From Desulfuromonas sp. DDH964 (GTDB taxonomy: Bacteria > Desulfobacterota > Desulfuromonadia > Desulfuromonadales > DDH964): 24,000 nt of DNA. The notes below the pieces were generated by a model, which did no database searches, had not been told where the DNA came from, and saw only the letters and a list, made by a program, of their open reading frames with translations. The stretch lies in assembly GCF_001611275.1 (NCBI RefSeq), contig NZ_CP015080.1:3066956-3090955 (forward strand). Direction: 5' to 3'. The position numbers and the translations under genes are program-made. This document shows, in pieces, positions 572 through 19,209 of this stretch. Positions within the stretch are counted from its first letter, which is position 1, and each line of letters begins with the position of its first letter.

Positions 572-1023
572 AATATTGCCGATTAATATGCCGGTATCTA
601 CTGTGCACAAAGATACATTTCTATTGAAGAAAATGCAAGTCGGATCAATATTTAACCAATTTTTTTGCCGATTATTCTGCCGATAGGTCGAGCAAGGAAG
701 GCGCATGGGGTCAATATGAAATCTGTAGACGCGTCCCTTCTGCTTTCCCTTTGCCTTGAAAAGCCCGTCAATTAAATATACTGTCCCCGGAATTCCTAAT
801 ATTGCCGATTAATATGCCGATACCTACTGTGCACAAAGATACATTTCTATTGAAGAAAATGCAAGTCGGATCAATATTTAACCAATTTTTTTGCCGATTA
901 TTCTGCCGATAGGTCGAGCAAGGAAGGCGCATGGGGTCAATATGAAATCTGAAGACGCGTCCCTTCTGCTTTCCCTTTGCCTTGAAAAGCCCGTCAATTA
1001 AATATACTGTCCCCGGAATTCCT
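572..1023. repeat. Tandem direct repeat, 2 x 226 bp (572-797 and 798-1023), about 3 substitutions between copies
   Basis: Direct comparison: both units run aatattgccgattaatatgccg...caattaaatatactgtccccggaattcct. Differences are ggtatc/gatacc and ctgtagac/ctgaagac. Each unit holds two dyads of TGCCG(A/G)T half-sites 12 bp apart: 577/589 and 666/678, then 803/815 and 892/904. Unit 1 starts 9 bp upstream of the Fic start codon. Confidence 0.95.
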
Positions 1024-1278: not shown

Positions 1279-2979
1279 CCTGAATCAGTGAGCTTACAAT
1301 CGTAATTTCTTGTTTTATCTTTGACAATTAGCTGATTTTGTTGATCTTTTCTGCTATTATAGAGCCGCCTCAAACTTCACCCAAGGAGATTTTTTCGTGA
1401 CGTTTCCGCGGTTCAACATCGAGCAGTCCGACAGCGAATTCTACACCTCCCAGTCCGGCGTGGCCCTGGTCGGCCTGGCGGTCAACAGGTTCACGTCGTT
1501 GAACGCGCGGGTCGCCAAGGCGGCCCCCTGCAAGGGCATTGCCACGGCCGATGTGCTGCGTTGCTATCTCGGCCTGCTCTGCCAGGGCAAGAGCGACTTC
1601 GAGGCGATCCGGCCTTTTTTCGAGGATGACGAGTTTTTCGCTGCGGCCCTCGGCGTCAACAAGGTCCCGTCACCGGAGACCCTGCGTCAGCGAATGGATG
1701 CCGTCGCCGAGGCGACGATGCGCATTGTCGACTTCTGTACGGTTGAGTTTCTCAAAAAAGCCAAGGCCGAGTTCTCGACGCTTGAGACCGGGCACATGCC
1801 GCTGGATTTGGACGTCTTCACCCAGGACAACTCCAACACCAAGAAAGAGGGGGCCTCCTGGACCTACCGCAAGTTCCACGGCTTCGCCCCGATCGCCGCC
1901 TGGCTGGGCTTGGAGGGGTGGTGTCTGGAGATCGAGCACCGTCCCGGGTCCCAGCATGCCCAGGAGGGCTTTGTCCCCTTTTTGCTGCGGGCGATTCACA
2001 AAAGCCGGCAGTTGACCGAAGCTCCCCTGCTGGTGCGACTGGACAGCGCCCACGATGCCATTGCGACTCTGGTGGCTCTCAAGGAAGAGAAGGTCGACTT
2101 CATCGTCAAGTGGAATCCCCGAGGGACCGACGTGCCGGCCAGAGCCAGCGAGGTCTTTGCCCACGGCAAGATGATCAAGCAGGATAAGACCGGCCGCATC
2201 GCCATCATGACGGAAACGGTCGAGCGCGCCTTCAAGGATGAGGATGACAAGTACCAGACTCTCAAGGTCCGCCGTGTGCTGCGGGCCACGGAACGCTATT
2301 TCGAAAAAGACGGCACCCCGCTGCTGGTCCCGGACATTGAAATCGAGGGCTGGTGGACCAGCCTCTCAAGCGCCAAGGACAAGGTGATCGAACTGTACAA
2401 GGGACACGCCCTGTGCGAGCAGTATCACTCCGAGCTTAAAAGCGATATGGATCTGGAACGTCTGCCGTCAGGCAAGTTCGCCACCAACACCCTGGTCATG
2501 CACTGTGCCGGGCTGGCCTACAACATTCTGCGGGCTGTGGGCCAGGTCGGCCTGATGACCGGCAAGCAGCGTCGGCGGGCCAAACAACGCCGCCGGCTCA
2601 AGACGGTGATTCAGGACCTGGTCTACTTCGCCGGGCGCTTCATCTGCCACGCACACGCCCTGACGTTGCGCTTCAGTCGGCATGCGCATGATCAGTATGA
2701 CGCTTTCAGTAGAACCTATCGACGGTTCGCTTATGGCTGACCGGAACCGAGACAATCAGGGCACGGAATAACCCCACCATCAGGTTGGGGTCGCCATCGC
2801 TCGCCCTGAAACAGACACAGAGAGGCCGCACCATGTAAAAATCAGCTGAATTGTCAAAGAACAGCTCCGCCGATCCGGGAAAACAACCCGGACGGACGGT
2901 GTGAGACTCAAAATCACTCGCGAAAATGACCTCGCGAGGTAAAAATCAGAGGTGCGAGCTGCCACCTCACTGATTCAGG
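1279..2979 (+). mobile_element. IS1380-family-like insertion sequence, copy A (1,701 bp)
   Basis: Boundaries come from comparison with copy B (constant offset of 10,414 bp). Terminal inverted repeats are cctgaatcagtgag (1279-1292) and ctcactgattcagg (2966-2979). The size, the CC-initiated ~14-bp IRs and the single ~447-aa DDE transposase fit IS1380 family members such as ISEcp1. No target-site duplication is visible (left flank tgtta, right flank tggat). Confidence 0.85.
1397..2740 (+). CDS. DDE transposase, IS4 superfamily / IS1380-like
   Basis: 447-aa ORF with a GTG start, preceded by AAGGAGA at 1383-1389. C-terminal YKGHALCEQYHSELK fits the Y-x2-(R/H)-x3-E-x6-K signature of IS4-type transposases. 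A near-identical second copy lies at 11811..13154. Confidence 0.9.
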   Translation: MTFPRFNIEQSDSEFYTSQSGVALVGLAVNRFTSLNARVAKAAPCKGIATADVLRCYLGLLCQGKSDFEAIRPFFEDDEFFAAALGVNKVPSPETLRQRMDAVAEATMRIVDFCTVEFLKKAKAEFSTLETGHMPLDLDVFTQDNSNTKKEGASWTYRKFHGFAPIAAWLGLEGWCLEIEHRPGSQHAQEGFVPFLLRAIHKSRQLTEAPLLVRLDSAHDAIATLVALKEEKVDFIVKWNPRGTDVPARASEVFAHGKMIKQDKTGRIAIMTETVERAFKDEDDKYQTLKVRRVLRATERYFEKDGTPLLVPDIEIEGWWTSLSSAKDKVIELYKGHALCEQYHSELKSDMDLERLPSGKFATNTLVMHCAGLAYNILRAVGQVGLMTGKQRRRAKQRRRLKTVIQDLVYFAGRFICHAHALTLRFSRHAHDQYDAFSRTYRRFAYG

Positions 2980-3398: not shown

Positions 3399-5795
3399 TT
3401 ATGCGTTGATTTGCGAGTGTTCGGGAGAGTCCTCGCCGACACGGTTGCGGTAAGCGGCCATGAACCCGTCGCGCAGACGGTCCTCAAGCGACACCTTGCG
3501 GTCGTCCACATCGTGGGGCCGGACACCGGCGTCGCTGCGTAGCGGCGTTTCCGTCGATGCCTTGGCGGCGGGCTTGCCGCCCTGGTCGCTGTCGGCGGGT
3601 TTTTCTTCCTTGTCCTTGTCCGCCTTTGCCGATTTGGGCAGGCGCTCGTAAGCGGCCTCGGTGGCGGCGAAGGCTTCGTCGGACAGTTCGGCCAGGCGTT
3701 TCAGCTCGGCTTCCCGGTCCTCCTCGGACGCAAAGGAGAGCCCCTGTTTCTCCAGCCGGGTGAGCAGTTTCTTGGCGCGGGAGCGACAAGCGGCCGCCTT
3801 TTGTTCGGCTTCCAGTTCCTGGACGCGCTTCTGCAGCTCGGCGACCTGGGCCTTGAGCTGTCGGTTTTCCTTTTCCAGGTCGGAAACGCGAGCGGGATCG
3901 CCTTCCTGCTGGGCCGGTTTCTTCTTGGCCGCTTCGACGGCCGGGTCATCGGTGGGTTTGGTTTTGTCTTCCATCGTGGAATCTCCTTCGGGTTGGGATT
4001 GGTCGGGCTGGCTCTGAAGGGACGCCACCTGCAGAATCCTGGCGTTCTCGTCCGCGCCTTTGCGGTCGAGCAGTCCCAGTCCGGTGAAAGTGACGCCGTG
4101 CAGAATCTCGAAAACGGGTTGGCCGTTGAAATCACGGCCCTTGAATTTGCGCAGGTGGGTGCAGTAGTCGGCCTTGTTCTGGAAGCGCTTGTGGCAGATT
4201 GAGCACTCACCCTCCTGGTAGTCGCATTCCATGGAGACCTGGGAGATGATCCCGCGCTTCATCAGCTTGTAGGCCAGCCGGGCGGCCGGGGTGTCGTGGA
4301 CATACAGCTCGCCGACGCATTCCACGCGGCCGCCGTTGTCGTCCTCCAGGTAGTCGGCGGCGACGATGCCTCCCACGATGTCGTTGAACTCCTGCGAATG
4401 CTGCAGATCGACCTTCTTGTTCACGGCCGTCATGTGCCGACCGGACAACTCCTCGGCGGTGAAGTGGTCGCCGTTCTTGTTGGTCCCGGTGCGGCAGAGC
4501 ACGAAGCTGAACTGGGGGTCGCCCGCCGAGCCGACATCCATGGCCTCGGTCGCGAGACGTTCGCCTTCGCCCAGCCGGATATCCACGGGGATGCTGGTGT
4601 GGAAGTTCGCGGCGGCGGCCATCGGAGCGGGTTTCTCCTCCCGCTCGGCGCTGGCCTTGGCCCCGGGAGCGCAGACGAACAAACGCTCCTTGGCGTTGGA
4701 AGCCTCGCCGTGCTTGGAGGTGATGGCGTAGTGGTGATCCTTGGACTTCATCCGGCTCTGTTTGCCGAAGGAGCCAATGATCCGCTTCATCTCCTGCTCG
4801 TTGGGATAGGCGTGATCGCGGTAGGAGATCAGCCAGTGCGGGATGTGCTTGGCGTTGCCGAGAAAGGTCTGGAAGAACTCGCTGGCGTTGGCCTTGGTGA
4901 CGGTCTTGTGGTCGGTCTCGTAATACTTGACCTTGGTGTCGGCCTTGATTTCGAGCCCTTCCCAATAGGTCATGAGCCCCTCCACGAAGTGGTAGGCCCG
5001 CTCGTAGTTGGTGGTCGAAAACTCGGTGGCGTAGGGCGGATCGAAGTAGGCCAGATCCGCCTTGGCTTTCGGCAGCAGCTCGTTGATGTCCTGCCGGTAT
5101 GCCTTGTTCTCCTTGTCGTTGTCGAAAACCAGGGCGTTGATACGCTGCAGGTTCTTGCGCAAGCGATCCTTGAACTCGTCGGGGGTGTCCTGGCGGCGGC
5201 CATAATCGGTGGACGACGAGAAGTGGCCGAAGCCACCCTTGCCGCTCATGCAGGTTTTTCCGAGGCCGAACAGGGCGATGTCTTTCTTGAAGCCGGAGAG
5301 CTTGTCGCAGTTGGCGCGGATGGTGTCGATCAGCGCATGGACGCCCTTGGCGAAGAAAATGCCCTTGAAGTTGTCCTGAACGAAGCTGCCCGCCTTGGCG
5401 TTGTCGGCCAGGAGTGCCTCGATCTCGTCCTCGCTCAGGCGAACCGAGTTGTTCTCGATGATCGCCTTGGCGGCATGGTGGCAGTAGCGGAGCCGGTCGT
5501 TGGCGATGACCTGGAGGCCCTTGGTCTTGTACATGTAGGCCACGACCGCAGACCCCGAAAAGGCATCCAGCACCGTGCCAGTGCCTTCCGGGGTATGCTT
5601 CCAGATCCAGTCGACGAGCTTTTGCTTACTGCCGATGTAGTTGGTGATGTACTTGGGGCGCTTCTCGGGAGGGAGCTCTTCAGGAGCGGACTGTTCGGCG
5701 GCCTCGGACCCGAGCGTGTCGGGATCGAGAGTCAGCGCCGCATCGGCCTCCAGTAGAAACGCCAGCCTTTCCAGGTCTGTGGCGAACAGTTCCAT
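3399..5795 (-). CDS. Fusion protein: D12/Dam-like N6-adenine DNA methyltransferase + prohead-protease-like domain with zinc knuckle + scaffold-like coiled coil
   Basis: 799-aa track ORF, with TTG at 5798. The likely start is ATG 5795, preceded by GGAGAcgttg. In track numbering the methyltransferase motifs are YIGSK 54-58, FSGSA 80-84 and FDPPY 252-256. Residues ~425-590 read NKNGDHFTAEEL...VDLQHSQE...IISQVSMECDY, with ECSICH...YCTH as a CxxC...CxH knuckle. Residues 636-720 form a heptad-rich charged coiled coil (LEKENRQLKAQVAELQKRVQELEAEQKAA...). Confidence 0.85.
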   Translation of the reverse strand: MELFATDLERLAFLLEADAALTLDPDTLGSEAAEQSAPEELPPEKRPKYITNYIGSKQKLVDWIWKHTPEGTGTVLDAFSGSAVVAYMYKTKGLQVIANDRLRYCHHAAKAIIENNSVRLSEDEIEALLADNAKAGSFVQDNFKGIFFAKGVHALIDTIRANCDKLSGFKKDIALFGLGKTCMSGKGGFGHFSSSTDYGRRQDTPDEFKDRLRKNLQRINALVFDNDKENKAYRQDINELLPKAKADLAYFDPPYATEFSTTNYERAYHFVEGLMTYWEGLEIKADTKVKYYETDHKTVTKANASEFFQTFLGNAKHIPHWLISYRDHAYPNEQEMKRIIGSFGKQSRMKSKDHHYAITSKHGEASNAKERLFVCAPGAKASAEREEKPAPMAAAANFHTSIPVDIRLGEGERLATEAMDVGSAGDPQFSFVLCRTGTNKNGDHFTAEELSGRHMTAVNKKVDLQHSQEFNDIVGGIVAADYLEDDNGGRVECVGELYVHDTPAARLAYKLMKRGIISQVSMECDYQEGECSICHKRFQNKADYCTHLRKFKGRDFNGQPVFEILHGVTFTGLGLLDRKGADENARILQVASLQSQPDQSQPEGDSTMEDKTKPTDDPAVEAAKKKPAQQEGDPARVSDLEKENRQLKAQVAELQKRVQELEAEQKAAACRSRAKKLLTRLEKQGLSFASEEDREAELKRLAELSDEAFAATEAAYERLPKSAKADKDKEEKPADSDQGGKPAAKASTETPLRSDAGVRPHDVDDRKVSLEDRLRDGFMAAYRNRVGEDSPEHSQINA

Positions 5796-5912
5796 CAACG
5801 TCTCCGGTTGGTTTGCTGGGCTCTCCGCGATCTGCGGGGAGCGTTCAGCGGTTACTTACCGGAAGCGTTGGCGATGTGTCGGAGGGTGACGAAATGAGAA
5901 TTTTTTATTGAC

Positions 5913-6848: not shown

Positions 6849-6972
6849 TGAGCGGAAGAGGTCGGTGAATCTGTCAGACTGATCAAAGTTCTCGCGACGC
6901 TGGGTAACCGCGGGGTACAACCTTCTGGACTTTTTCCAGGAGGTGGTCCCATTGGCACACACGAGGTTATCC

Positions 6973-8499
6973 ATGCGCAAGATCAAGGACGTTCTGCGTC
7001 TGCATTACGAAGCCGGCCTGACACAGCGGGCCATCGCCCGCTCCGTCGGCACGTCACACACCACGGTGGGCGAATTTCTGAGACGCGCCGCTCACGCCGG
7101 GTTGTCTTGGCCGCTGCCAGAGAATCTGGACGAAACCCGACTTGAACAGTTGCTCTTTCCGCCAGCGCCAGTCATTCCCGCCGACCAGCGCCCCATGCCC
7201 GACTGGGCGACCATCCATCAGGAACTCAAGCGCAAGGGCGTCACCCTGGGGCTGCTCTGGGAGGAATACCAGAACAGCCATCCCGAGGGGTATCGCTACA
7301 GCCGTTTCTGCGATCTGTACCGTGAGTGGTCCGGCAAACTGCGTCTGTCGATGCGTCAGGTGCACAAAGCCGGCGAGAAGCTGTTTGTCGACTACACCGG
7401 CCAGACCCTGCCGATCGTCGACCGCCGCACCGGCGAGATCCGCGAAGCGCAACTGTTCGTCGCGGCCCTGGGGGCGAGTTCCCAGACGTTTGCCGAAGCC
7501 ACCTGGACCCAAGGGCTGCCGGACTGGATCGGCTCGCATGTCCGGGCCTTCTCCTTCTACGGCGGAGTGCCCGAGATCGTTGTTCCGGACAACCTGAAAA
7601 GCGCCGTCTCCAAACCCTGCCGCTACGAACCGGACATCAACCCCACCTATGCGGAGCTGGCCGCTCACTATGGCTGCGCGGTGATTCCGGCGCGGGTGCG
7701 CAAACCCAAAGACAAGGCCAAGGTCGAGGCGGCGGTTCTGGTCGCCGAGCGCTTCATCCTGGCGCGGCTGCGCAACCGTACCTTCTTCAGTCTGGCCGAG
7801 GCCAACGCCGCCATTCGGGAGCTGGTGGAGCACCTCAACCGGCGCCCCTTCAAGAAGCTTCCCGGCTGCCGCCAGCAGCTCTTCGACACCCTGGAACGTC
7901 CGGCTCTGAATCCTCTGCCGGCGACCCCCTATACGTTCGCCGAATGGCGCCATGCGCGGGTCAACATCGATTACCATGCCGAAGTCGACCACCACTACTA
8001 CTCGGTCCCGTATGTGCTGGTGAAGCAGCAGCTCGACGTGCGCCTGACGGCGACCACCGTCGAATTTCTGCACAAAGGGCAACGGGTGGCCTCCCATGTC
8101 CGCTCCTCTGAGCGCGGTCGCCACACCACTCTCGGCGAGCACATGCCCAAAAGCCACAGGGAGTATGCCGAATGGACGCCGCAGCGCCTGGTTTCCTGGG
8201 CGGCCAAAACCGGACCGCACACCGCCGCCTTGGCAGAGAAGATCCTGGCCTCACGGGCCCATCCCCAGCAGGGCTACCGCAGCGTCCTGGGGCTGATCCG
8301 GCTGGCCAAGACCTACACGCCCGAGCGCCTGGAGGCGGCCTGCCAGCGGGCCCTGGCAACAAACGCCTGTCGCCTCAAGAGCGTCGCCTCGATCCTCAAA
8401 ACCGGACTGGACCGCCAGTCGCTCCCCGAGTCCACCGAGTCCCAACTCTCATTGCTGCCGAGTCACGACAACATCCGCGGCGCCGGCTACTACCACTGA
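6973..8499 (+). CDS. istA: IS21-family transposase IstA
   Basis: The track ORF 6943..8499 starts at a GTG. ATG 6973 (MRKIKDVLRLHYEAGLTQRAIARSVG...) has GAGG 6 nt upstream. It has an N-terminal HTH and a central DDE integrase-type region, and is followed by istB, the typical IS21 organisation. Confidence 0.9.
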   Translation: MRKIKDVLRLHYEAGLTQRAIARSVGTSHTTVGEFLRRAAHAGLSWPLPENLDETRLEQLLFPPAPVIPADQRPMPDWATIHQELKRKGVTLGLLWEEYQNSHPEGYRYSRFCDLYREWSGKLRLSMRQVHKAGEKLFVDYTGQTLPIVDRRTGEIREAQLFVAALGASSQTFAEATWTQGLPDWIGSHVRAFSFYGGVPEIVVPDNLKSAVSKPCRYEPDINPTYAELAAHYGCAVIPARVRKPKDKAKVEAAVLVAERFILARLRNRTFFSLAEANAAIRELVEHLNRRPFKKLPGCRQQLFDTLERPALNPLPATPYTFAEWRHARVNIDYHAEVDHHYYSVPYVLVKQQLDVRLTATTVEFLHKGQRVASHVRSSERGRHTTLGEHMPKSHREYAEWTPQRLVSWAAKTGPHTAALAEKILASRAHPQQGYRSVLGLIRLAKTYTPERLEAACQRALATNACRLKSVASILKTGLDRQSLPESTESQLSLLPSHDNIRGAGYYH

Positions 8500-8513
8500 C
8501 CAAGGAGACCACC

Positions 8514-9269
8514 ATGCTCAGCCACCCCACCGACGACAAACTGCGCGCCCTCAAGCTGACCGGCATGCTCAAGGCCCTTCAGGAACAGCGCCTTAGCGAG
8601 ACCGCCGATGCCTTGAGCTTCGAGGAGCGCCTCGGCCTGCTGGTCGACCGCGAGCAGACCGAGCGCGACAGCCGCCGGCTCACCACTCGCCTGCGCACGG
8701 CCCGGCTGCGTCAGAGCGCCTGCATCGAGGACCTCGACTGGAGGGCACCCCGGGGACTCGACCGCGACCTCGTGCTGGCGCTGGCCGGCGGTCGCTACCT
8801 CGCCAAGGGCCACAACATTCTCATCACCGGCCCCACCGGCGTCGGCAAGAGCTACCTCGCCTGCGCCTTGGCTCACAAGGCCTGCCGCCTCGGCTGCAAG
8901 ACCCTCTACCTGCGCCTGCCCCGCTTCCTGGAGGAACTGGCCCTCGCGCGGGCCGACGGCCGCTACCCCAAGATGATGGATAGAGTCGCCAAGACTCAAC
9001 TGCTCGTCCTCGACGATTGGGGGCTCGCCCCCATGACCGCCGCCGGTTGCCGCGATCTGCTCGAAATCCTCGAGGACCGCCACAATCTGCGTTCGACCCT
9101 GATCACCAGCCAGCTTCCGGTCGAAGCCTGGCACGACTACCTCGGGGATCCGACGGTCGCCGACGCCATCCTCGACCGCCTCATCCACAACGCCTACCGG
9201 CTCACCTTGAAAGGAGAATCGATGCGCAAACGGCGATCCCAGCTTGACCCGATCGGCAACTTGGCGTAA
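8514..9269 (+). CDS. istB: IS21-family helper ATPase IstB
   Basis: ATG 8514 follows AAGGAG at 8502-8507. Walker A is GPTGVGKS and Walker B is LLVLDDWG. The longer track ORF from 8172 is an upstream-extended shadow. Confidence 0.92.
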   Translation: MLSHPTDDKLRALKLTGMLKALQEQRLSETADALSFEERLGLLVDREQTERDSRRLTTRLRTARLRQSACIEDLDWRAPRGLDRDLVLALAGGRYLAKGHNILITGPTGVGKSYLACALAHKACRLGCKTLYLRLPRFLEELALARADGRYPKMMDRVAKTQLLVLDDWGLAPMTAAGCRDLLEILEDRHNLRSTLITSQLPVEAWHDYLGDPTVADAILDRLIHNAYRLTLKGESMRKRRSQLDPIGNLA

Positions 9270-11692: not shown

Positions 11693-13393
11693 CCTGAATC
11701 AGTGAGCTTACAATCGTAATTTCTTGTTTTATCTTTGACAATTAGCTGATTTTGTTGATCTTTTCTGCTATTATAGAGCCGCCTCAAACTTCACCCAAGG
11801 AGATTTTTTCGTGACGTTTCCGCGGTTCAACATCGAGCAGTCCGACAGCGAATTCTACACCTCCCAGTCCGGCGTGGCCCTGGTCGGCCTGGCGGTCAAC
11901 AGGTTCACGTCGTTAAACTCGCGGGTCAACAAGGCGGCGCCCTGCAAGGGCGTTGCCACGGCCGATGTGCTGCGTTGCTATCTCGGCCTGCTCTGCCAGG
12001 GCAAGAGCGACTTCGAGGCGATCCGGCCTTTTTTCGAGGATGACGAGTTTTTCGCTGCGGCCCTCGGCGTCAACAAGGTCCCGTCACCGGAGACCCTGCG
12101 TCAGCGAATGGATGCCGTCGCCGAGGCGACGATGCGCATTGTCGACTTCTGTACGGTTGAGTTTCTCAAAAAAGCCAAGGCCGAGTTCTCGACGCTTGAG
12201 ACCGGGCACATGCCGCTGGATTTGGACGTCTTCACCCAGGACAACTCCAACACCAAGAAAGAGGGGGCCTCCTGGACCTACCGCAAGTTCCACGGCTTCG
12301 CCCCGATCGCCGCCTGGCTGGGCTTGGAGGGGTGGTGTCTGGAGATCGAGCACCGTCCCGGGTCCCAGCATGCCCAGGAGGGCTTTGTCCCCTTTTTGCT
12401 GCGGGCGATTCACAAAAGCCGGCAGTTGACCGAAGCTCCCCTGCTGGTGCGACTGGACAGCGCCCACGATGCCATTGCGACTCTGGTGGCTCTCAAGGAA
12501 GAGAAGGTCGACTTCATCGTCAAGTGGAATCCCCGAGGGACCGACGTGCCGGCCAGAGCCAGCGAGGTCTTTGCCCACGGCAAGATGATCAAGCAGGATA
12601 AGACCGGCCGCATCGCCATCATGACGGAAACGGTCGAGCGCGCCTTCAAGGATGAGGATGACAAGTACCAGACTCTCAAGGTCCGCCGTGTGCTGCGGGC
12701 CACGGAACGCTATTTCGAAAAAGACGGCACCCCGCTGCTGGTCCCGGACATTGAAATCGAGGGCTGGTGGACCAGCCTCTCAAGCGCCAAGGACAAGGTG
12801 ATCGAACTGTACAAGGGACACGCCCTGTGCGAGCAGTATCACTCCGAGCTTAAAAGCGATATGGATCTGGAACGTCTGCCGTCAGGCAAGTTCGCCACCA
12901 ACACCCTGGTCATGCACTGTGCCGGGCTGGCCTACAACATTCTGCGGGCTGTGGGCCAGGTCGGCCTGATGACCGGCAAGCAGCGTCGGCGGGCCAAACA
13001 ACGCCGCCGGCTCAAGACGGTGATTCAGGACCTGGTCTACTTCGCCGGGCGCTTCATCCGCCACGCGCACGCCCTGACGTTGCGCTTCAGTCGGCATGCG
13101 CATGATCAGTATGACGCCTTCAGCAGAACCTACCGACGGTTCGCTTATGGCTGACCGGAACCGAGACAATCAGGGCACGGAACAACCCCACCATCAGGTT
13201 GGGGTCGCCATCGCTCGCCCTGAAACAGACACAGAGAGGCCGCACCATGTAAAAATCAGCTGAATTGTCAAAGAACAGCTCCGTCAACCTGAAAAAACAA
13301 TCCGGACGGACGGTGTGACACTCAATAAGGCTCGCGAAAAAGGCCTCGCGAGACAAAAACCAGAGGTACGAACTGCTACATCACTGATTCAGG
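11693..13393 (+). mobile_element. IS1380-family-like insertion sequence, copy B (1,701 bp)
   Basis: Same length and IRs as copy A (cctgaatcagtga... and ...tcactgattcagg). No target duplication (flanks ttctt and attca). Confidence 0.85.
11811..13154 (+). CDS. DDE transposase, IS4 superfamily / IS1380-like (copy B)
   Basis: 447 aa, differing from copy A at only 4 residues (A37S, A40N, I47V, C421R). Confidence 0.9.
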   Translation: MTFPRFNIEQSDSEFYTSQSGVALVGLAVNRFTSLNSRVNKAAPCKGVATADVLRCYLGLLCQGKSDFEAIRPFFEDDEFFAAALGVNKVPSPETLRQRMDAVAEATMRIVDFCTVEFLKKAKAEFSTLETGHMPLDLDVFTQDNSNTKKEGASWTYRKFHGFAPIAAWLGLEGWCLEIEHRPGSQHAQEGFVPFLLRAIHKSRQLTEAPLLVRLDSAHDAIATLVALKEEKVDFIVKWNPRGTDVPARASEVFAHGKMIKQDKTGRIAIMTETVERAFKDEDDKYQTLKVRRVLRATERYFEKDGTPLLVPDIEIEGWWTSLSSAKDKVIELYKGHALCEQYHSELKSDMDLERLPSGKFATNTLVMHCAGLAYNILRAVGQVGLMTGKQRRRAKQRRRLKTVIQDLVYFAGRFIRHAHALTLRFSRHAHDQYDAFSRTYRRFAYG

Positions 13394-13942: not shown

Positions 13943-14245
13943 TCAGCCCGCCAGCAGCGGACCAACCACCCGTTCCACCTCCGCCACCGTCACTCCCCGC
14001 ACCAGCAACCGCTTGTGCCGGGAGGTCTCGCCGGCGAGCAGTTCCACCGCCCCCTTGGCGACGCCGAAGAACTTGGCGAAGTATTCGCAGCAGCACTTGT
14101 TGGCGGCACCGTCGACGGGGGGCGAGGTGAGGCGGACTTTCAGTTCCTCCCCCTGGACGCCGGCGATCTGGTTGCGGCTGGCGCGCGGCTGGACCAACAG
14201 GGCGATCACCGCGCCGCGCGGGTCGGCGCTCAGCCAGACGGGCAT
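13943..14245 (-). CDS. yggU: DUF167/YggU family protein
   Basis: 100 aa. LLVQPRASRNQIAGVQGEELKVRLTSPPVDGAANKCCCEYFAKFFGV is the typical YggU core (V-x-P-x-A-x-x-x-I...L-K-V-x-x-x-A-P-P-x-x-G-x-A-N). The start overlaps the divIVA stop. Confidence 0.85.
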   Translation of the reverse strand: MPVWLSADPRGAVIALLVQPRASRNQIAGVQGEELKVRLTSPPVDGAANKCCCEYFAKFFGVAKGAVELLAGETSRHKRLLVRGVTVAEVERVVGPLLAG

Positions 14246-14778
14246 CAGGGTTTTTCGTCCGTCGCCGCCGGGCGTCCGTCGAAGGGGAGGCGTTCTTCGA
14301 GCAGGCGGTCGTCACGGGTCTGGTCGGTGAGCGCTACGACGTCGAGGTCGAGCAGGCGCATGTGGCTCTCGACCAGGGTGCGCAGGGAGGTTTCGAAGGA
14401 GATCTTCTGCCGCTTCAGGTCCTGGATTTCATTGATCAGCTGGATGCGGCGGTCTTCGGCATCGCGCATGATCCGCTCGGCGCGCAGCTGGGCATCGGCG
14501 GTAATGATGTCGGCCTCGCGGCGGGCGTTGGCCTTGAGCTCGTCGGTCACCCGCTGGGTCGTCACCAGCGTCTCCTTCAGCGTCGCCTCGCGCTGGCGCA
14601 TCTCCTCCAGGCTCGCCCGGGTCCGCGCCAGCTCCTCCTTGGTCTCCTGGTGCTGACGCATGAAGCTCTCCAGCTCGTCGGCGATCATTTCGAGGAAATG
14701 ATCAACGCCGGCCTTGTCGTAGCCGAAGGGACGGGTTTTGAACTGGTACTGCTGGATGTCGATGGGGGTGATGCGCAT
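14245..14778 (-). CDS. DivIVA domain protein
   Basis: MRITPIDIQQYQFKTRPFGYDKAGVDHFLEMIADELE is the canonical DivIVA N-terminus, followed by coiled coil. ATG 14778 has GAGG 8 nt upstream. The earlier track start at 14808 would overlap yggT. Confidence 0.88.
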   Translation of the reverse strand: MRITPIDIQQYQFKTRPFGYDKAGVDHFLEMIADELESFMRQHQETKEELARTRASLEEMRQREATLKETLVTTQRVTDELKANARREADIITADAQLRAERIMRDAEDRRIQLINEIQDLKRQKISFETSLRTLVESHMRLLDLDVVALTDQTRDDRLLEERLPFDGRPAATDEKP

Positions 14779-14791
14779 GGCGAAGGCCTCG

Positions 14792-15079
14792 TCAGAAACG
14801 GTAGGCAAGCTGGGCGAGCAGTTCGAGCAGCAGCCGGCGCAGCAGGGATATACCGAGCAAAAGGATGATCGGCGAAAAGTCGATACCGCCGAACTGGGAC
14901 GGGATGTAGCGGCGGATGAAGGCGAGGGGCGGTTCCGTCACCTGGTAGAGGAAGCGTACGATCGGGTTGTAAGGGTCGGGGTTGACCCAGGAGACCAGGG
15001 CGCGCCCGATGACGATGAAGGTGTATATCTGGAAGATCAGGCCGATCACCTCGGCCAAGGTCGATAGGAGCACGTTCAT
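14792..15079 (-). CDS. yggT: YggT family membrane protein
   Basis: MNVLLSTLAEVIGLIFQIYTFIVIGRALVSWVNPDPYNPIVRFLYQVTEPPLAFIRRYIP...IDFSPIILLL is the YggT signature. ATG 15079 has GGAAGGA upstream. Confidence 0.88.
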   Translation of the reverse strand: MNVLLSTLAEVIGLIFQIYTFIVIGRALVSWVNPDPYNPIVRFLYQVTEPPLAFIRRYIPSQFGGIDFSPIILLLGISLLRRLLLELLAQLAYRF

Positions 15080-15195
15080 TGTCGATTCCTTCCCGGCGAT
15101 CCGGCCTGGATGGCGAGGTCGCACTGAGCCCCATTTTATAGCCGATGCTGGCTCGAGGTGTCAAACCAAATCCCCGCCGGGGGCCACCCAAGGCT

Positions 15196-15224
15196 TTGAC
15201 TTTCCCGCGGAAAACCGCTAAAGT
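15196..15224 (+). promoter_or_regulatory. Candidate sigma70-type promoter for the DAHP synthase gene
   Basis: TTGACT (15196-15201), 17 nt spacer, TAAAGT (15219-15224), ~70 nt upstream of ATG 15295. Pattern match only. Confidence 0.35.
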
Positions 15225-15294
15225 GACGCCCCGGAACGGGTGTTCCGCACACCGCGCACCGCAAATGACATCGATTCGACAAAGGGGAACCAGC

Positions 15295-16359
15295 ATGAAA
15301 CGGACCAACAACCTGCGAATCCGGGGGCTGACCCCGATTATCGCCCCGGCCGACCTGAAACAGGTCTTTCCGCTTTCCGTCGAAGGGGCGGAGTTTGTTA
15401 CCAGCGCCCGGCAACAGGTCATCGATATTCTCGCCGGCCGCGACCGCCGCCTGATGGCGGTGGTCGGTCCCTGCTCGATCCATGACGCCCGGGCCGCCCG
15501 CGACTACGCCCGCCACCTCGCCGAACTCGGCCGCGAACTGCGAGACCAGCTGCTGCTGGTGATGCGCGTCTACTTCGAAAAGCCACGCACCACCATCGGC
15601 TGGAAGGGGCTTATCAACGACCCCGACCTCAACGGTACCTACCAGATCTCCAAGGGGCTCGGCGTCGCCCGTGGCCTCCTCTGTTCGATCACTGAGCTCG
15701 GCCTGCCGGTCGCCGGCGAGATGCTCGACCCGGTCACCCCCCACTACCTCGCCGACCTCGTCAGCTGGGGCGCGATCGGCGCCCGCACTACCGAATCCCA
15801 GACTCACCGCGAGATGGCCAGCGGCCTCTCCTTCCCGGTCGGTTTCAAGAACGGCACCGACGGCAACCTGCAGATCGCCATCGACGCCATGGGCGCGGCG
15901 CGCCACTCGCACAGCTTCCTCGGCATCAACAACGAGGGGCGCAACTCCATCGTCCAGACCACCGGCAACGAGGACGTCCACATCGTCCTGCGCGGCGGCA
16001 ACGACAAGCCCAACTACTATCCCGAGGACATCGCCCGCACCGAGCAGATGCTCGCCAAGGCCGGCCTCAACCGCGGCATCATGGTCGACTGCAGCCACGC
16101 CAACTCCTGCAAGAACCACGAAAAGCAGGAGGAGGTGCTCGGCAGCGTCCTCGAACAGGTCGCCGCCGGCAACCGCTCAATCTGCTCGGTGATGATCGAG
16201 AGCAACCTCAAGGCGGGCAACCAGCCGATCCCACAGAACCTGGCCGACCTCAAGTACGGCGTCTCGGTCACCGACAAGTGCGTCGACTGGAAGACCACCG
16301 AGCGAATGCTGCGCCACGCCCACGCGGTGCTGAAGAAGTGCGGCGGCCGGCAGCTCTGA
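15295..16359 (+). CDS. aroG: 3-deoxy-7-phosphoheptulonate (DAHP) synthase, class I
   Basis: 354 aa starting at ATG 15295, with AAAGGGGA upstream. Conserved blocks: VVGPCSIHD, RVYFEKPRTTIGWKGLINDP, GEMLDP, SWGAIGARTTESQTHREMASGLS, PVGFKNGTDG, VDCSHANS. The isozyme (aroG, aroF or aroH) cannot be told from the sequence. Confidence 0.92.
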   Translation: MKRTNNLRIRGLTPIIAPADLKQVFPLSVEGAEFVTSARQQVIDILAGRDRRLMAVVGPCSIHDARAARDYARHLAELGRELRDQLLLVMRVYFEKPRTTIGWKGLINDPDLNGTYQISKGLGVARGLLCSITELGLPVAGEMLDPVTPHYLADLVSWGAIGARTTESQTHREMASGLSFPVGFKNGTDGNLQIAIDAMGAARHSHSFLGINNEGRNSIVQTTGNEDVHIVLRGGNDKPNYYPEDIARTEQMLAKAGLNRGIMVDCSHANSCKNHEKQEEVLGSVLEQVAAGNRSICSVMIESNLKAGNQPIPQNLADLKYGVSVTDKCVDWKTTERMLRHAHAVLKKCGGRQL

Positions 16360-16372
16360 AAGAGCAATTTCC

Positions 16373-16418
16373 AGGTCCTATGGGTCCCATAGGACCTATC
16401 GGACCTATAACCTGGACC
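16373..16418. promoter_or_regulatory. Perfect 12-bp-arm palindrome plus a GGACC(T) repeat array between aroG and hgcA
   Basis: aggtcctatggg-t-cccataggacct spans 16373-16397. It is followed by ggacctat (16401-16408) and ggacc (16414-16418). No U-tract follows the hairpin. The array ends 6 nt before ATG 16424. Confidence 0.6.
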
Positions 16419-16501
16419 AAGCCATGACCGAAAACCTCGAAAACAAACCAACACCCACCCCCTGCTGACCGCCGAAAGCGCCGCCGGGAGCGGCGCCCAC
16501 A

Positions 16502-17632
16502 GTGGAGTCTGCAGCCCCCGCCGTGCCGGCGGCGGTGACCTGCTGCCCGCCTCCGGCGGGCGGCGGCGCGCAGGCTGGCGAACGCCCCGGCCTGCGGCTC
16601 TGGCCCTTTGTCTGCGGCTGGCTCGACACCCCCGCCGGGCCGGTGCCGCAGGTCGAGACGCGGCAGCGCCCTAATGACCTCTTCGGCCGCTGGCAGATGC
16701 GCTGGGGCCTGGGGCGCATGCGCTACCGGATCGCGCCCGGCCTCTACGCCATCGGCAACCCGGACAGCGCAGCGCCGGTCCTGGTCACTGCCAACTACAA
16801 ACTCACCTTCGACAGCCTGCGCCGGGAACTGACCGGCCTCGACGCCTGGATCCTGGTACTGGAAACCTTCGGCATCAACGTCTGGTGCGCCGCCGGCAAG
16901 GGGACCTTCGGCACCGACGAAGTCATCCGCCGTCTCCGCGCAAGCGGCCTCGACCAGGTCGTCGCACATCGCACCCTGATCCTCCCCCAACTCGGCGCGC
17001 CCGGGGTCGCGGCCCACCAGGTGCGCCGCGAATCGGGTTTTTCGGTCCTCTACGGGCCGGTGCGCGCGGCCGACCTGCCCGCCTTTCTCGCCACCGGGAA
17101 TCAGGCCACCCCGGCCATGCGCCGGGTCAGCTTCACGACCGCGGAGCGGTTTGCGCTCACCCCGGTGGAGCTGACCTCGATGCTGCGGCCGCTCGGCTGG
17201 GGAATTCTCCTGCTGCTCCTCCTCGGCCTCGCCGGGCCGCAACTGCTCCATCCCGGGGCCGCCCTCGGCCGGGGACTGGCCGCCATTGCCGCCGGCCTCG
17301 CCGGGGTGGTGACCGGGGCGGTGCTGACGCCGCTACTCCTCCCCTGGCTCCCCCCCCGGGCCTTCGCCGCCAAGGGGGCCATGAGCGGAGGCGTGGTGGC
17401 CCTTTTCGGCCTCGCCTGCTCCTGGGAAGGGCTCGGCCCCTGGAACGGCGCCGCCCTGCTGCTGGCGCTGCCGGCCGTCGCCTCCTGGTGCGCCATGAAT
17501 TTCACCGGTTCCAGCACCTTCACCTCCCCTTCCGGGGTCGAAAAGGAGATGCGCCGCGCTATCCCCCTGCAGGGGCTGGCGGTGCTCGTCGCTGGCGTGT
17601 TGTGGATTTACGGGGGGTTCGTCGGGGGATGA
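16502..17632 (+). CDS. hgcA: Mercury-methylation corrinoid protein HgcA
   Basis: Contains the diagnostic cap-helix motif GINVWCAAGKGTFG within a CFeSP-like corrinoid domain (GRMRYRIAPGLYAIGNP...PVLVTANYKLTFD), followed by a multi-helix transmembrane C-terminal half. The GTG start at 16502 is uncertain; see the UGA finding for a possible start at 16424. Confidence 0.92.
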   Translation: MESAAPAVPAAVTCCPPPAGGGAQAGERPGLRLWPFVCGWLDTPAGPVPQVETRQRPNDLFGRWQMRWGLGRMRYRIAPGLYAIGNPDSAAPVLVTANYKLTFDSLRRELTGLDAWILVLETFGINVWCAAGKGTFGTDEVIRRLRASGLDQVVAHRTLILPQLGAPGVAAHQVRRESGFSVLYGPVRAADLPAFLATGNQATPAMRRVSFTTAERFALTPVELTSMLRPLGWGILLLLLLGLAGPQLLHPGAALGRGLAAIAAGLAGVVTGAVLTPLLLPWLPPRAFAAKGAMSGGVVALFGLACSWEGLGPWNGAALLLALPAVASWCAMNFTGSSTFTSPSGVEKEMRRAIPLQGLAVLVAGVLWIYGGFVGG

Positions 17633-17634
17633 AA

Positions 17635-17928
17635 ATGGCGGAGAAACTCGTTTATCTGGAAGGGGTCAGCACCCTCAAACTCGATCGCGAGCGCTGCATC
17701 GGCTGTGGTCTTTGCGCCGTCGTCTGCCCCCATGCCGTCTTCCTGGTCGAAGCCGGCAAGGCCGAAATCACCGCCCTCGATCGCTGCATGGAATGCGGCG
17801 CCTGCGCCCGCAACTGCCCGGTGACGGCGCTCCAGGTCAAGGCCGGGGTCGGCTGCGCCAGCGCGATCATCCACAGCTGGCTGACCGGCGAGGAACCGTC
17901 CTGCGACTGCGGCGGGTCGAGCTGCTGA
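17635..17928 (+). CDS. hgcB: Mercury-methylation ferredoxin HgcB
   Basis: 97 aa (MAEKLVYLEGVSTLKLD...). Two CxxCxxCxxxCP clusters (CIGCGLCAVVCP and CMECGACARNCP), a conserved GVGCASAI Cys and a Cys-rich tail (SCDCGGSSC). GGGGGA lies 5 nt upstream. An alternative ATG at 17629 overlaps the hgcA stop. Confidence 0.9.
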   Translation: MAEKLVYLEGVSTLKLDRERCIGCGLCAVVCPHAVFLVEAGKAEITALDRCMECGACARNCPVTALQVKAGVGCASAIIHSWLTGEEPSCDCGGSSC

Positions 17929-17943
17929 CCCGCGCTTGCCCCT

Positions 17944-19209
17944 TCAGCCCTGCAGCTGTTTAAGGGTGGTGTCGGCAACGGTCGCCCCGATACTCAGGGA
18001 CGCGGTCGCGGCCGGGGACGGCGCATTGAGCAGGTGAACCATCCCCTCCCCCTCCAGGATATGAAAGTCGTCGAGCAGGGAACCATCGGCGGCAATCGCC
18101 TGGGCGCGGACACCTGCGCCGCCCCGTTCCACATCCTCTTCGCGCAGCGCCGGAATCAGCCGCTGCAGGTCCCGCACAAAGAGCCCCTTGCTGAAGGAAC
18201 GCTGGAACTCTCCCAGCCCCTTGTCCCAGTAACGCGCCGCCAGGTGCCAGAAACCCGGATAGGTGAAGGTCGCCAGGCTGTCGCGCAGCGACCAGCTGAG
18301 GCGGTCGTACCCCTCGCGGCGAAAGGCGAGCACCGCGTTGGGCCCGGCTTCCACCCGGCCGTCGATCATGCGGGTGAAATGGACACCGAGAAAGGGAAAC
18401 GCCGGGTCGGGAACCGGATAGATGAGGTTGCGTACCAGCGATCTCGCCGCCGGCCGCAGCAGGTAGTATTCGCCGCGAAAGGGGACAATGCGCACGCCGG
18501 GGCGAAGACCGGCGAGGACCGCCACCCGGTCGCACTGCAATCCGGCGCAGTTGACGATCTGGCGGGCCAGCACGCTGCCGCCGGGAGTCCCGAGACGGAA
18601 ATGATCCCCATCCCGGCGGATGCTCTGCACCTCGCTGCAAAGGCGCACCTCCCCGCCCCCCTGCTGCACCCGGCGCGCCAGGGCTTCGGTCACCGCGACA
18701 TAGTCGACGATTCCGGTCTGGGGGACAAAAAGACCGGCGAGCCCGGCGACCTCCGGTTCATGGTCATGCAGACCGGACTCATCGAGACGCAGGATTCCTT
18801 CCAGGCCATTGGCCCGGCCGCGCCGCTCCAGTTCATCGAGGAGGGGAAGCTCTTCCTCGCTGCCGGCAACCACCAGTTTGCCACAGCGCTCGTGGGCTAT
18901 CCCCTCGGCGGCACAAAAGGCGTAGAGGGCAACCCGTCCGGAGCTGCAATTGGTGGCTTTGAGCGAGCCCGGGCGGTAATAGAGCCCGGAGTGAATGACT
19001 CCGCTGTTATGGCCGGTCTGGTGGGCGGCCAGCTGCGGCTCCTTCTCGAGCAGCAGAACCTTCAGGCCCGGCGCCCGTTCCAGGAGAGCCGCCGCCGTCG
19101 CGCAGCCGAGGATACCGCCGCCAATCACGACGACATCGGCGATGGCGTCGGCCGGAACGCTATTTTTTGTCACTGTTTTGCACCAGGACCTCGACCTCGA
19201 GGCGAACAT
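17944..19209 (-). CDS. lhgO: L-2-hydroxyglutarate oxidase (FAD-dependent)
   Basis: VVVIGGGILG dinucleotide fold, plus HQTGHNSGVIHSGLYYRPGSLKA, PFRGEYY, LIYPVPDPAFPFLGVHFTRMIDG, GPNAVLAFRREGY and NAPSPAATASLSIG. These closely track E. coli LhgO/YgaF as I recall it. The start is uncertain (ATG 19209 or GTG 19173). Confidence 0.88.
   Translation of the reverse strand: MFASRSRSWCKTVTKNSVPADAIADVVVIGGGILGCATAAALLERAPGLKVLLLEKEPQLAAHQTGHNSGVIHSGLYYRPGSLKATNCSSGRVALYAFCAAEGIAHERCGKLVVAGSEEELPLLDELERRGRANGLEGILRLDESGLHDHEPEVAGLAGLFVPQTGIVDYVAVTEALARRVQQGGGEVRLCSEVQSIRRDGDHFRLGTPGGSVLARQIVNCAGLQCDRVAVLAGLRPGVRIVPFRGEYYLLRPAARSLVRNLIYPVPDPAFPFLGVHFTRMIDGRVEAGPNAVLAFRREGYDRLSWSLRDSLATFTYPGFWHLAARYWDKGLGEFQRSFSKGLFVRDLQRLIPALREEDVERGGAGVRAQAIAADGSLLDDFHILEGEGMVHLLNAPSPAATASLSIGATVADTTLKQLQG

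What the first reader, a model, noticed from the sequence alone, without database searches (positions are those of the whole stretch)
16424..16501. In-frame TGC-TGA followed by a hairpin upstream of hgcA: possible Cys-Sec N-terminal extension of the mercury-methylation protein
An ATG at 16424 is in the same frame as the called GTG start of hgcA (16502). The only interruption is one TGA at 16466-16468.
- **Local sequence:** ACC CCC TGC TGA CCG CCG (T-P-C-[UGA]-P-P) closely parallels GTG ACC TGC TGC CCG CCT CCG (V-T-C-C-P-P-P) 24 codons downstream, inside hgcA. The UGA therefore occupies the position of the second Cys of a repeated CCPP motif, which is the classic Sec/Cys pattern.
- **Hairpin:** a 7-bp GC stem, gcgccgc-cggga-gcggcgc (16478-16496), starts 12 nt after the UGA. 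Its G-containing apical loop lies ~19 nt downstream, inside the distance window I recall for bacterial SECIS elements.

A selenol next to a thiol at the N-terminus of HgcA would be a very high-affinity Hg(II) ligand, and I do not recall this being described.

Caveats:
- ATG 16424 has no obvious Shine-Dalgarno.
- GGGAG sits 11 nt before GTG 16502.
- GC-rich DNA forms such hairpins easily.
- The ATG..TGA stretch could simply be a 14-codon upstream ORF.
Basis: partly seen in the sequence, partly recalled or inferred. Interest (0 to 1): 0.65.

Follow-up and report, generated by a model that had tools for sequence, protein, structure and literature searches.

The report
Selenocysteine N-terminal extension of HgcA
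The mercury-methylation gene hgcA of Desulfuromonas carbonis almost certainly starts 78 bases earlier than annotated and reads a UGA as selenocysteine, giving a Cys-Sec pair at its N-terminus; this is real, but it was already described for the HgcA family in 2022-2023.

Summary
ATG 16424, TGC-TGA 16463-16468 and the annotated GTG 16502 are in one frame, and a 7-bp hairpin (16478-16496) follows the TGA.

The hairpin on its own is not special (fold z = 0.02). The comparative evidence decides the matter.
- 13 further Desulfuromonadales hgcA loci (12 distinct sequences) carry the same in-frame (C/Y)-TGA-PPKAPPGA module, and Cys-form relatives have CC at that site.
- 19 of 80 genome loci have TGA, never TAA or TAG, directly after a Cys upstream of the called start.
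- The hairpin pairs in 91 of 91 cells, with one G:C→G:U→A:U series.
- Third codon positions are frozen inside the stem and free outside it.
- A Cys-form relative with CCPPKAPP has lost the hairpin.

It is not new: Haft & Gwadz (bioRxiv 2022; J Bacteriol 2023) reported that most HgcA proteins are selenoproteins with a CU motif upstream of the predicted start.

This locus is an unannotated member (the RefSeq protein is still 376 aa). Its motif is PCUPP rather than the published PCUGP. Sec machinery in this genome could not be checked, and no experimental proof was found.

The parts
16424..17632 (+). Corrected hgcA: 402 codons plus stop, with UGA at codon 15 read as Sec. Product begins MTENLENKPTPTPCUPPKAPPGAAPTVESAAPAVPAAVTCCPPP...
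   Evidence: One frame with a single internal TGA. NF040863 HgcA scores 449 bits. The same architecture occurs in 13 relatives' loci.
16424..16426 (+). Probable true start codon (ATG); no clear Shine-Dalgarno sequence
   Evidence: It is the only ATG/GTG/TTG in this frame between the end of aroG and the TGA. Relatives start with a homologous 'MT(D/E)...' 12-17 codons before the TGA.
16463..16468 (+). TGC-TGA, the Cys-Sec (CU) dipeptide codons; the Sec codon is 16466-16468
   Evidence: 19 of 80 relatives' loci have TGA directly after Cys as the nearest in-frame upstream stop, and never TAA or TAG. Cys-form relatives have CC at this position.
16478..16496 (+). Putative SECIS hairpin: 7-bp stem GCGCCGC/GCGGCGC with loop CGGGA, the loop starting 19 nt after the U of the UGA. 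It also encodes A-P-P-G-A-A.
   Evidence: 91 of 91 cells pair in 13 sequences, with a GC→GU→AU series at one pair. Third codon positions are conserved in 51 of 52 cells in the stem and vary outside it. The hairpin is absent in Cys-form L089. Sec-form versus Cys-form hairpin test gives p≈9e-10.
16502..16504 (+). Annotated GTG start (RefSeq WP_231875342.1, 376 aa); probably an internal Val codon
   Evidence: The cluster look-up shows 376 aa. GTG at this aligned position occurs only in the window and in L081/L082. Other relatives were called at non-homologous GTG/ATG/TTG codons.
16541..16555 (+). Second motif, TGC TGC CCG CCT CCG (CCPPP): a Cys-only repeat of the CU-PP unit
   Evidence: Relatives carry 1-7 tandem CC(PP) repeats in this tail.
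17629..17928 (+). hgcB, 99 aa, Cys form (GVGC, not GVGU). Its start overlaps the hgcA stop (ATGA).
   Evidence: NF040864 scores 130 bits; coordinates.

Best explanation
hgcA of Desulfuromonas carbonis is a selenoprotein gene whose annotated start is too far downstream.

Proposed mechanism: translation begins at ATG 16424. At UGA 16466 the Sec-specific elongation factor SelB, carrying Sec-tRNA(Sec), is recruited by the mRNA hairpin at 16478-16496 (a bacterial SECIS). Sec is inserted and translation continues in frame through the former 'start' GTG 16502. The 402-residue HgcA that results has a flexible, Pro-rich N-terminal tail with a Cys-Sec dyad (PCUPP) and, 26 residues later, a Cys-Cys dyad (CCPPP). 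The tail most plausibly captures Hg(II), or handles the CH3Hg+ product, near the corrinoid domain.

Shown here in silico: the reading frame, the Cys/Sec homology, and the conservation of the hairpin and its link to the UGA. Inferred: actual Sec insertion, SelB binding, and the role in metal binding.
For: (1) Geometry of the locus.

(2) Recurrence. In 19 of 80 genome loci plus the window, the nearest in-frame upstream stop is TGA directly after Cys. None of the 29 TAA/TAG stops follows Cys.

(3) All close relatives checked (78% to over 90% HgcA identity: L081-L088, L090, L002) keep the order start, 12-17 variable codons, (C/Y)-TGA, PPKAPPGA, HgcA. Length differences are always multiples of three.

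(4) Cys homologues have CC at the same site. P0027 reads CCPPKAPP.

(5) Hairpin. It pairs 100% in 13 sequences, against 15-62% when the partners are slid, and one pair goes GC→GU→AU. Third-position G is fixed inside the stem (columns 18, 27 and 30 in 13 of 13; column 15 in 12 of 13) and at loop column 21. Third positions vary at columns 9, 24, 33, 36 and 39.

(6) The Cys-form L089 keeps the 5' arm but has lost the 3' arm.

(7) Other lineages' Sec forms have their own 5-7 bp hairpin, with the loop 22 nt after the UGA in 10 of 14. All 7 pairs show double changes, and 0 of 500 shuffles reach the observed score.

(8) Sec sites have longer stems than Cys-form CC sites: mean 6.5 versus 3.6 bp, p≈9e-10.

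(9) Published precedent: Haft 2022 found 20 of 20 short HgcA calls extendable through one UGA to a CU motif. A 2026 review lists HgcA NF040863 as a CU selenoprotein.
Against: - No Sec machinery (selA, selB, selC, selD) could be checked for this genome. None lies in the 24-kb window: there are no tRNA genes, and no sel-like domain among the ten other window ORFs scanned.
- ATG 16424 has no evident Shine-Dalgarno sequence.
- The hairpin is not thermodynamically unusual for this composition (z = 0.02).
- Covariation within the Desulfuromonadales set is not significant on its own (141 of 500 shuffles), because the stem barely varies.
- The stem also encodes a conserved peptide, so part of its conservation could be at the protein level.
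- The hairpin-centred alignment used for one search is biased towards pairing.
- The sequences are phylogenetically related, so the p-values are optimistic.
- The motif is PCUPP, not the 'perfectly conserved' PCUGP of the preprint.
- No experimental demonstration of Sec in any HgcA was found. PMC11588087 says only 'may be selenoproteins'.
Confidence: 0.85

Rival explanations
1. The TGA is a true stop. The tail's first repeat was knocked out by a TGC→TGA nonsense mutation, and HgcA is now made only from GTG 16502 using the GGGAG upstream, as annotated. The upstream stretch is a decaying remnant.
For: TGC→TGA is a single base change. The number of CC repeats varies from 1 to 7 among relatives, so losing one should be tolerated. 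GGGAG lies 11 nt before the GTG. NCBI annotates the 376-aa form.
Against: The same TGA, in the same codon context, is kept in 13 further loci spanning 57% to over 90% HgcA identity. Both flanks are still in frame, and an upstream start is retained. A remnant would accumulate frameshifts and other stops. The stop is always TGA. The GTG and the GGGAG are not conserved. Synonymous sites are frozen only where they pair.
Confidence: 0.05
2. Dual output. The UGA is read as Sec when selenium is available. When it is not, ribosomes terminate after a 14-residue peptide, and a shorter Sec-free HgcA is made by (re)initiation at GTG 16502. Selenium supply would then set the ratio of the two isoforms.
For: GTG 16502 with GGGAG 11 nt upstream is a usable initiation site in this genome and in L081/L082. 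Many relatives have some ATG/GTG/TTG shortly after the hairpin, which gene callers picked. By my reading of PMC11588087, ND132 HgcAB expressed in E. coli, presumably from the annotated ORF without Sec, still methylated Hg in lysates. That would mean the tail is not strictly required.
Against: The downstream start is neither positionally nor sequence-conserved. The GGGAG sits in the loop of the hairpin and is explained by the Pro-Gly-Ala codons and the G-rich SECIS loop. There is no direct evidence for reinitiation.
Confidence: 0.08
3. The 14-codon ATG...TGA stretch is an independent regulatory upstream ORF (leader peptide), and the hairpin is an attenuator or translational structure controlling hgcA.
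For: A short ORF followed by a GC-rich hairpin immediately before a gene start resembles leader-peptide arrangements. The hairpin overlaps the putative ribosome-binding site of GTG 16502.
Against: The leader peptide sequence is poorly conserved apart from the terminal Cys. The stretch after the stop, by contrast, is conserved as an in-frame peptide continuous with HgcA, and is homologous to coding CC-PP repeats in Cys forms. No terminator-like T-run is present. No Rfam family matches.
Confidence: 0.02

Closest known systems
Selenocysteine-containing HgcA (NCBIfam NF040863), as described by Haft 2022 (bioRxiv 10.1101/2022.07.06.499078) and Haft & Gwadz 2023 (J Bacteriol 205:e00259-22); for example the re-extended GSU1440 of Geobacter sulfurreducens and DND132_1056 of Pseudodesulfovibrio mercurii ND132
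   Same: It has a single in-frame UGA upstream of the previously called start and a CU dipeptide aligned with CC in Cys forms. Database entries are truncated at the N-terminus. The corrinoid and transmembrane HgcA core is the same, and hgcB follows.
   Different: The motif is PCUPP-KAPPGA instead of the PCUGP reported as 'perfectly conserved' in the preprint's 20 cases. The preprint's alignment (Supplementary Figure 7) has 24 CUGP and no CUPP or PPKAPP. A further CCPPP repeat follows the CU site. The hairpin has a different sequence (GCGCCGC-CGGGA-GCGGCGC). No HgcA SECIS is described in the preprint text I read.
Cys-form HgcA with N-terminal CC(PP) repeat tails, for example Geoalkalibacter sp. 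P0027 and P0042
   Same: The Pro-rich tail is homologous. 'CCPPKAPP' in P0027 aligns with 'CUPPKAPP' here.
   Different: It has TGC instead of TGA and lacks the 3' arm of the hairpin. It usually has more repeats, 3 to 7.
Bacterial SECIS elements, the archetype being E. coli fdhF (background knowledge)
   Same: A stem-loop lies in the coding sequence immediately 3' of the UGA. It has a G-containing apical loop about 19-26 nt after the UGA, and the downstream peptide is constrained by the RNA.
   Different: SelB binding has not been tested. No bulged U is evident. The simple 7-bp stem and 5-nt loop are not recognised by any Rfam model.
Other CU-motif selenoproteins linked to mercury or organometallic chemistry: SaoB, SaoC, SaoL and Sec-form MerT (Haft 2022)
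   Same: An adjacent Cys-Sec pair is proposed as a soft-metal ligand.
   Different: These are unrelated protein folds and genetic contexts. The similarity is in the motif only.

Membership tests
HgcA, mercury methylation corrinoid protein (NF040863) | Match to the equivalog HMM above its cut-off, including the cap-helix motif N(V/I)WCA(A/G)GK | tested here: met
   449 bits against a cut-off of 275. GINVWCAAGKGTFGT is present in the translation.
HgcA, mercury methylation corrinoid protein (NF040863) | Adjacent hgcB ferredoxin gene | tested here: met
   NF040864 scores 130 bits against a cut-off of 99. The gene lies at 17629-17928 and overlaps the hgcA stop.
Sec-form HgcA (Haft & Gwadz) | The ORF can be extended upstream to a start codon by reading exactly one in-frame UGA | tested here: met
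   From ATG 16424 to the stop at 17632 there is a single internal TGA.
Sec-form HgcA (Haft & Gwadz) | The UGA aligns with Cys in homologues, forming a CU/CC dipeptide | tested here: met
   P0027 has CCPPKAPP against CUPPKAPP in the window, and there are many other CC tails.
Sec-form HgcA (Haft & Gwadz) | PCUGP pentapeptide around Sec, stated as perfectly conserved in the 20 cases of the preprint | tested here: not met
   The window has PCUPP. Other lineages here show GCUPK, SCUPP, ICUGP, SCUTT and YUPP. This shows the published motif is too narrow rather than excluding membership.
Sec-form HgcA (Haft & Gwadz) | The genome encodes selA, selB, selC (tRNA-Sec) and selD | not testable with these tools
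   Only 24 kb of the genome is available. It holds no tRNA gene and no sel-like domain among the ten other ORFs scanned. Papers on strain DDH964 do not mention these genes.
Bacterial SECIS element | A stem-loop within about 10-40 nt 3' of the UGA with a G in the apical loop | tested here: met
   The stem is at 16478-16496 and the loop CGGGA starts at +19. All 24 Sec forms have a perfect stem of at least 5 bp starting 9-16 nt after the UGA.
Bacterial SECIS element | The structure is conserved beyond coding needs, covaries, and is tied to the presence of the UGA | tested here: met
   Synonymous sites are fixed only in the stem and the first loop bases. One pair goes GC→GU→AU. There are 7 of 7 covarying pairs in other lineages (from a biased alignment). 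The hairpin is lost in Cys-form L089. The Sec versus Cys comparison gives p≈9e-10.
Bacterial SECIS element | Binds SelB and directs Sec insertion | not testable with these tools
   This needs an experiment.

The most novel reading that the evidence does not exclude
The Desulfuromonadales 'CU-PPKAPPGA' unit may be a distinct, self-contained Sec module, a repeat unit of the CC-PP array that carries its own SECIS. It would head a multi-site thiolate/selenolate tail. Because usable start codons follow it, the gene could yield a Sec-headed or a tail-less HgcA depending on selenium supply. That would couple selenium availability directly to the rate or substrate affinity of mercury methylation.
Probability: 0.1. 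Interest if true: 0.65.

Novelty: new member of a known kind. Interest (0 to 1): 0.3.

Why it matters
HgcA makes methylmercury, the neurotoxic and bioaccumulating form of mercury. If the native enzyme carries an N-terminal Cys-Sec dyad, several things follow:
- Constructs and structural models built from the annotated start lack a probable Hg(II)-binding element.
- Reference databases built from truncated annotated proteins, including those used for hgcA surveys, would omit that part of the protein.
- Selenium supply becomes a plausible control on methylation.

That general point has been published. What this locus adds is modest:
- The RefSeq protein held in the collection searched here is still the truncated 376-aa form (WP_231875342.1).
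- The published PCUGP motif is too narrow. A whole Desulfuromonadales clade uses PCUPP-KAPPGA, and Syntrophia-like lineages use CUP(K/S/P).
- It supplies comparative SECIS evidence (conserved hairpins at a fixed distance, lost in Cys forms), which I did not find in the preprint.

Tried and rejected
- **Single-sequence folding.** The fold of 16460-16530 is no better than shuffles, so it cannot serve as evidence.
- **Rfam.** No match at gathering thresholds for the whole window. A permissive scan of 16380-16600 gave only noise, such as miRNA and sRNA hits with E>0.1. Rfam gave no SECIS-like match.
- **ARAGORN.** No tRNA or tRNA-Sec in the window.
- **NCBIfam.** The NF040863 profile starts at residue 48 of the 376-aa call, so it neither supports nor contradicts the extension.
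- **Sec machinery of D. carbonis / DDH964.** Two genome papers, the preprint's supplements and the 2026 review say nothing about it. I judged a SelA/SelB/SelD homology search unlikely to bring this species into the 120 hits listed, so I did not spend it.
- **J Bacteriol version.** PMC9879109 is not held, so I relied on the preprint.
- **Promoter and terminator scan of 16100-16650.** Nothing found.
- **Metagenome scan.** Not used, because the genome loci and encoding contigs already gave enough relatives.
- **Covariation within the Desulfuromonadales hairpin alone.** Not significant. I rely instead on synonymous-site conservation and on the Cys-form control.

Full report
**1. The observation**

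The window is from Desulfuromonas carbonis, also known as Desulfuromonas sp. DDH964. The 376-aa ORF at 16502-17632 is 100% identical to the NCBI protein 'mercury methylation corrinoid protein HgcA' (AMV73219.1 / WP_231875342.1).

- ATG at 16424
- TGC at 16463
- TGA at 16466
- hairpin gcgccgc-cggga-gcggcgc at 16478-16496
- GGGAG at 16486-16490
- GTG at 16502
- a second TGC-TGC-CCG-CCT-CCG at 16541-16555

From 16424 to the hgcA stop at 17632 there are 403 codons, and that TGA is the only internal stop. The ORF is HgcA (NF040863, 449 bits), followed by hgcB at 17629-17928 (NF040864).

Taken alone the hairpin is unremarkable. The local fold is no more stable than dinucleotide shuffles (z = 0.02). 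No Rfam family matches.

**2. What relatives show**

I searched with the hypothetical extended protein, with Cys in place of the TGA. This showed that Desulfuromonadales HgcA proteins commonly carry a Pro-rich N-terminal tail with 1-7 tandem CC(PP) repeats. One of them, Geoalkalibacter P0027, reads '...SSCCPPKAPPATAQTCCPP...'. That matches the window's 'TPC[TGA]PPKAPPGAAPT...VTCCPPP'.

I then translated the hgcA frame upstream in 80 genome loci. In 19 of them, as in the window, the nearest in-frame stop is TGA directly after a Cys codon. None of the 29 TAA/TAG stops follows Cys.

These loci fall into lineage-specific types:
- C-U-PPKAPPGA in Desulfuromonadales (L002, L006, L008, L011)
- APC-U-GP(K/R)PDP in Desulfovibrio-like genomes (L029, L034)
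- C-U-P.....LP.L.QPFV in Syntrophia-like genomes (11 loci)
- one further locus of its own, L040 (GC-U-AK)

Contigs encoding the closest database proteins gave the same picture. L081/L082 (over 90% identical), L083 (87%), L084 and L085 (78%), L086-L088 and L090 all have this order:
- a start codon
- 12-17 poorly conserved codons
- (P/S)C-TGA (Tyr-TGA in L086)
- CCN-CCN-AAR-GCG-CCG-CCG-GGN-GCG (CCG replaces AAR in L088, GCA the first GCG in L090), continuing in frame into HgcA

Gene callers placed the starts of these genes at non-homologous GTG, ATG or TTG codons downstream. The GTG at the window's position occurs only in the window and in L081/L082, and GGGAG is replaced by GGGTG, GGGCG or GGGGG in five of the 13 sequences aligned. 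The annotated start is therefore not a conserved feature, whereas the upstream module is.

**3. The hairpin as a SECIS**

I aligned 13 Desulfuromonadales sequences on the TGA without gaps.

- All 91 stem cells pair, against 15-62% when the 3' partners are slid by 1-3 columns.
- One pair runs G:C (9 sequences), G:U (3), A:U (1, in L090).
- Variation is too low for a significant shuffle test (141 of 500).

Third codon positions are more telling:

| Alignment column (third codon position) | Location | Bases seen in 13 sequences |
|---|---|---|
| 6 | first codon after the UGA | G in 13 |
| 15 | stem | G in 12, A in 1 |
| 18, 27, 30 | stem | G in 13 |
| 21 | loop | G in 13 |
| 9 | spacer | G, C, A |
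| 12 | spacer | A in 11, G in 2 |
| 24 | last loop base | A, T, C, G |
| 33, 36, 39 | downstream of the stem | variable |

Synonymous freedom is therefore suppressed mainly where the RNA pairs and in the first loop bases.

Cys-form L089 is a natural control. Its sequence TGC-TGC-CCG-CCC-AAG-GCG-CCG-CCG-GCA-ACC keeps the 5' arm but has no 3' arm and no hairpin.

Across all data, each of the 24 Sec sites in that comparison has a perfect 5-7 bp stem starting 9-16 nt after the UGA. At 116 CC sites of Cys forms the mean stem is 3.6 bp, against 6.5 bp at Sec sites (Mann-Whitney p≈9e-10, not corrected for phylogeny).

The other lineages have hairpins of different sequence, with the apical loop 22 nt after the UGA in 10 of 14. 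All seven pairs show double substitutions, and 0 of 500 shuffles reach the observed covariation. The caveat is that I centred that alignment on each locus's best hairpin, which favours pairing.

Nearly all loops contain G in their first three positions, as expected for bacterial SECIS elements (background knowledge).

**4. Mechanism**

The best-supported reading runs as follows.
- Translation starts at ATG 16424.
- SelB·GTP·Sec-tRNA(Sec) is recruited by the hairpin, 9 nt downstream, and decodes UGA 16466.
- The result is a 402-residue HgcA beginning MTENLENKPTPTPCUPPKAPPGAAPTVESAAPAVPAAVTCCPPP.

The Cys-Sec dyad and the following Cys-Cys dyad sit on a proline-rich tail ahead of the corrinoid domain. 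They are plausible soft-metal ligands for Hg(II) delivery or CH3Hg+ release.

The frame, the homology and the RNA conservation are shown here. Sec insertion and the metal role are inferred.

Rivals:
- **A fixed nonsense mutation with restart at GTG 16502.** Contradicted by conservation of the TGA, of both flanks and of the hairpin over deep divergence.
- **An independent 14-codon uORF.** Contradicted by the in-frame, protein-like conservation after the stop.
- **Dual output depending on selenium supply.** Not excluded, but there is no positive evidence for it.

**5. Comparison with what is known**

This has been published. [quoted passage not shown] It extended GSU1440, DND132_1056 and 18 others through a single UGA. 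A 2026 review lists HgcA (NF040863, CU) and HgcB (NF040864, GVGU) as selenoprotein families.

The present locus differs only in detail.
- The motif is PCUPP, not the PCUGP called 'perfectly conserved'.
- The preprint's HgcA alignment has 24 CUGP and no CUPP or PPKAPP.
- The preprint text describes no HgcA SECIS.
- The RefSeq protein held in the collection is still the truncated 376-aa form.
- The NF040863 profile begins at residue 48 of that form, so it cannot flag the missing part.

I found no experimental confirmation. The 2024 PNAS study of purified HgcAB says only that some homologues 'may be selenoproteins'.

**6. What could not be done**

The window has no tRNA gene and none of the ORFs scanned has a sel-like domain. 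Papers on strain DDH964 are silent on the subject. The Sec trait is common in this phylum, and Haft reports the machinery in all 20 species he examined, but this remains unverified for D. carbonis.

**7. Verdict**

It is a new, unannotated member, with a slightly different motif, of an already described class. Interest is low to moderate: it offers a useful annotation correction and broadens the published motif and the SECIS evidence, but it is not a discovery.

Noticed in passing
window 16373-16406 (between the aroG stop at 16359 and ATG 16424): A perfect 12-nt palindrome, AGGTCCTATGGG/CCCATAGGACCT, with a third related copy (GGACCTATCGGACCT) lies just upstream of the corrected hgcA start. 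Similar GGTCC(T/C)AT...GGACC motifs occur at the same place in L081-L083 but not in L084 or L085. It could be an operator for a regulator of hgcAB. It has no terminator-like T-run.
   Followed up: partly
window 1279-2740 and 11693-13154: Two direct copies (98-100% identical over the part compared) of an element encoding a 447-aa DDE transposase (PF13701), 10.4 kb apart. They bracket a D12-class adenine methyltransferase fusion (3399-5798, minus strand) and an IS21-type IstA/IstB pair (6943-9269). The arrangement resembles a composite transposon or mobile island, a few kb upstream of the hgcAB neighbourhood.
   Followed up: partly
window 572-1023: A tandem duplication of a 226-nt unit (572-797 and 798-1023, 99% identical). 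Its content was not examined.
   Followed up: no
window 17629-17928 (hgcB): HgcB is the Cys form at the position where some HgcB proteins have Sec (GVGC here, GVGU in Sec forms). Its C-terminus is ...EEPSCDCGGSSC rather than the terminal Cys-Cys dipeptide described for nearly all HgcB.
   Followed up: partly
L086:1261-1266: One metagenomic relative has TAC-TGA (Tyr-Sec) instead of TGC-TGA, with the hairpin intact. This is either a natural YU variant or a sequencing error.
   Followed up: no
Relatives P0006, P0026, P0028, P0058, P0081; L087, L090: HgcA N-terminal tails in Desulfuromonadales are tandem arrays of up to about 7 CC(PP) units with variable spacers. In Sec forms with several units (L087, L090) only the first unit carries U. 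The copy-number variation suggests rapid repeat expansion and contraction.
   Followed up: partly
window 13943-19209 versus L084, L085, L081: Gene order is conserved in relatives: DUF167, divIVA, yggT (minus strand), then aroG (DAHP synthase), hgcA, hgcB. In most relatives checked (L081/L082, L084, and the loci), an FAD-dependent oxidoreductase (DAO family) then follows on the minus strand. In L081/L082 and L084, a response-regulator-GGDEF gene follows that. L085 differs downstream of hgcB.
   Followed up: partly
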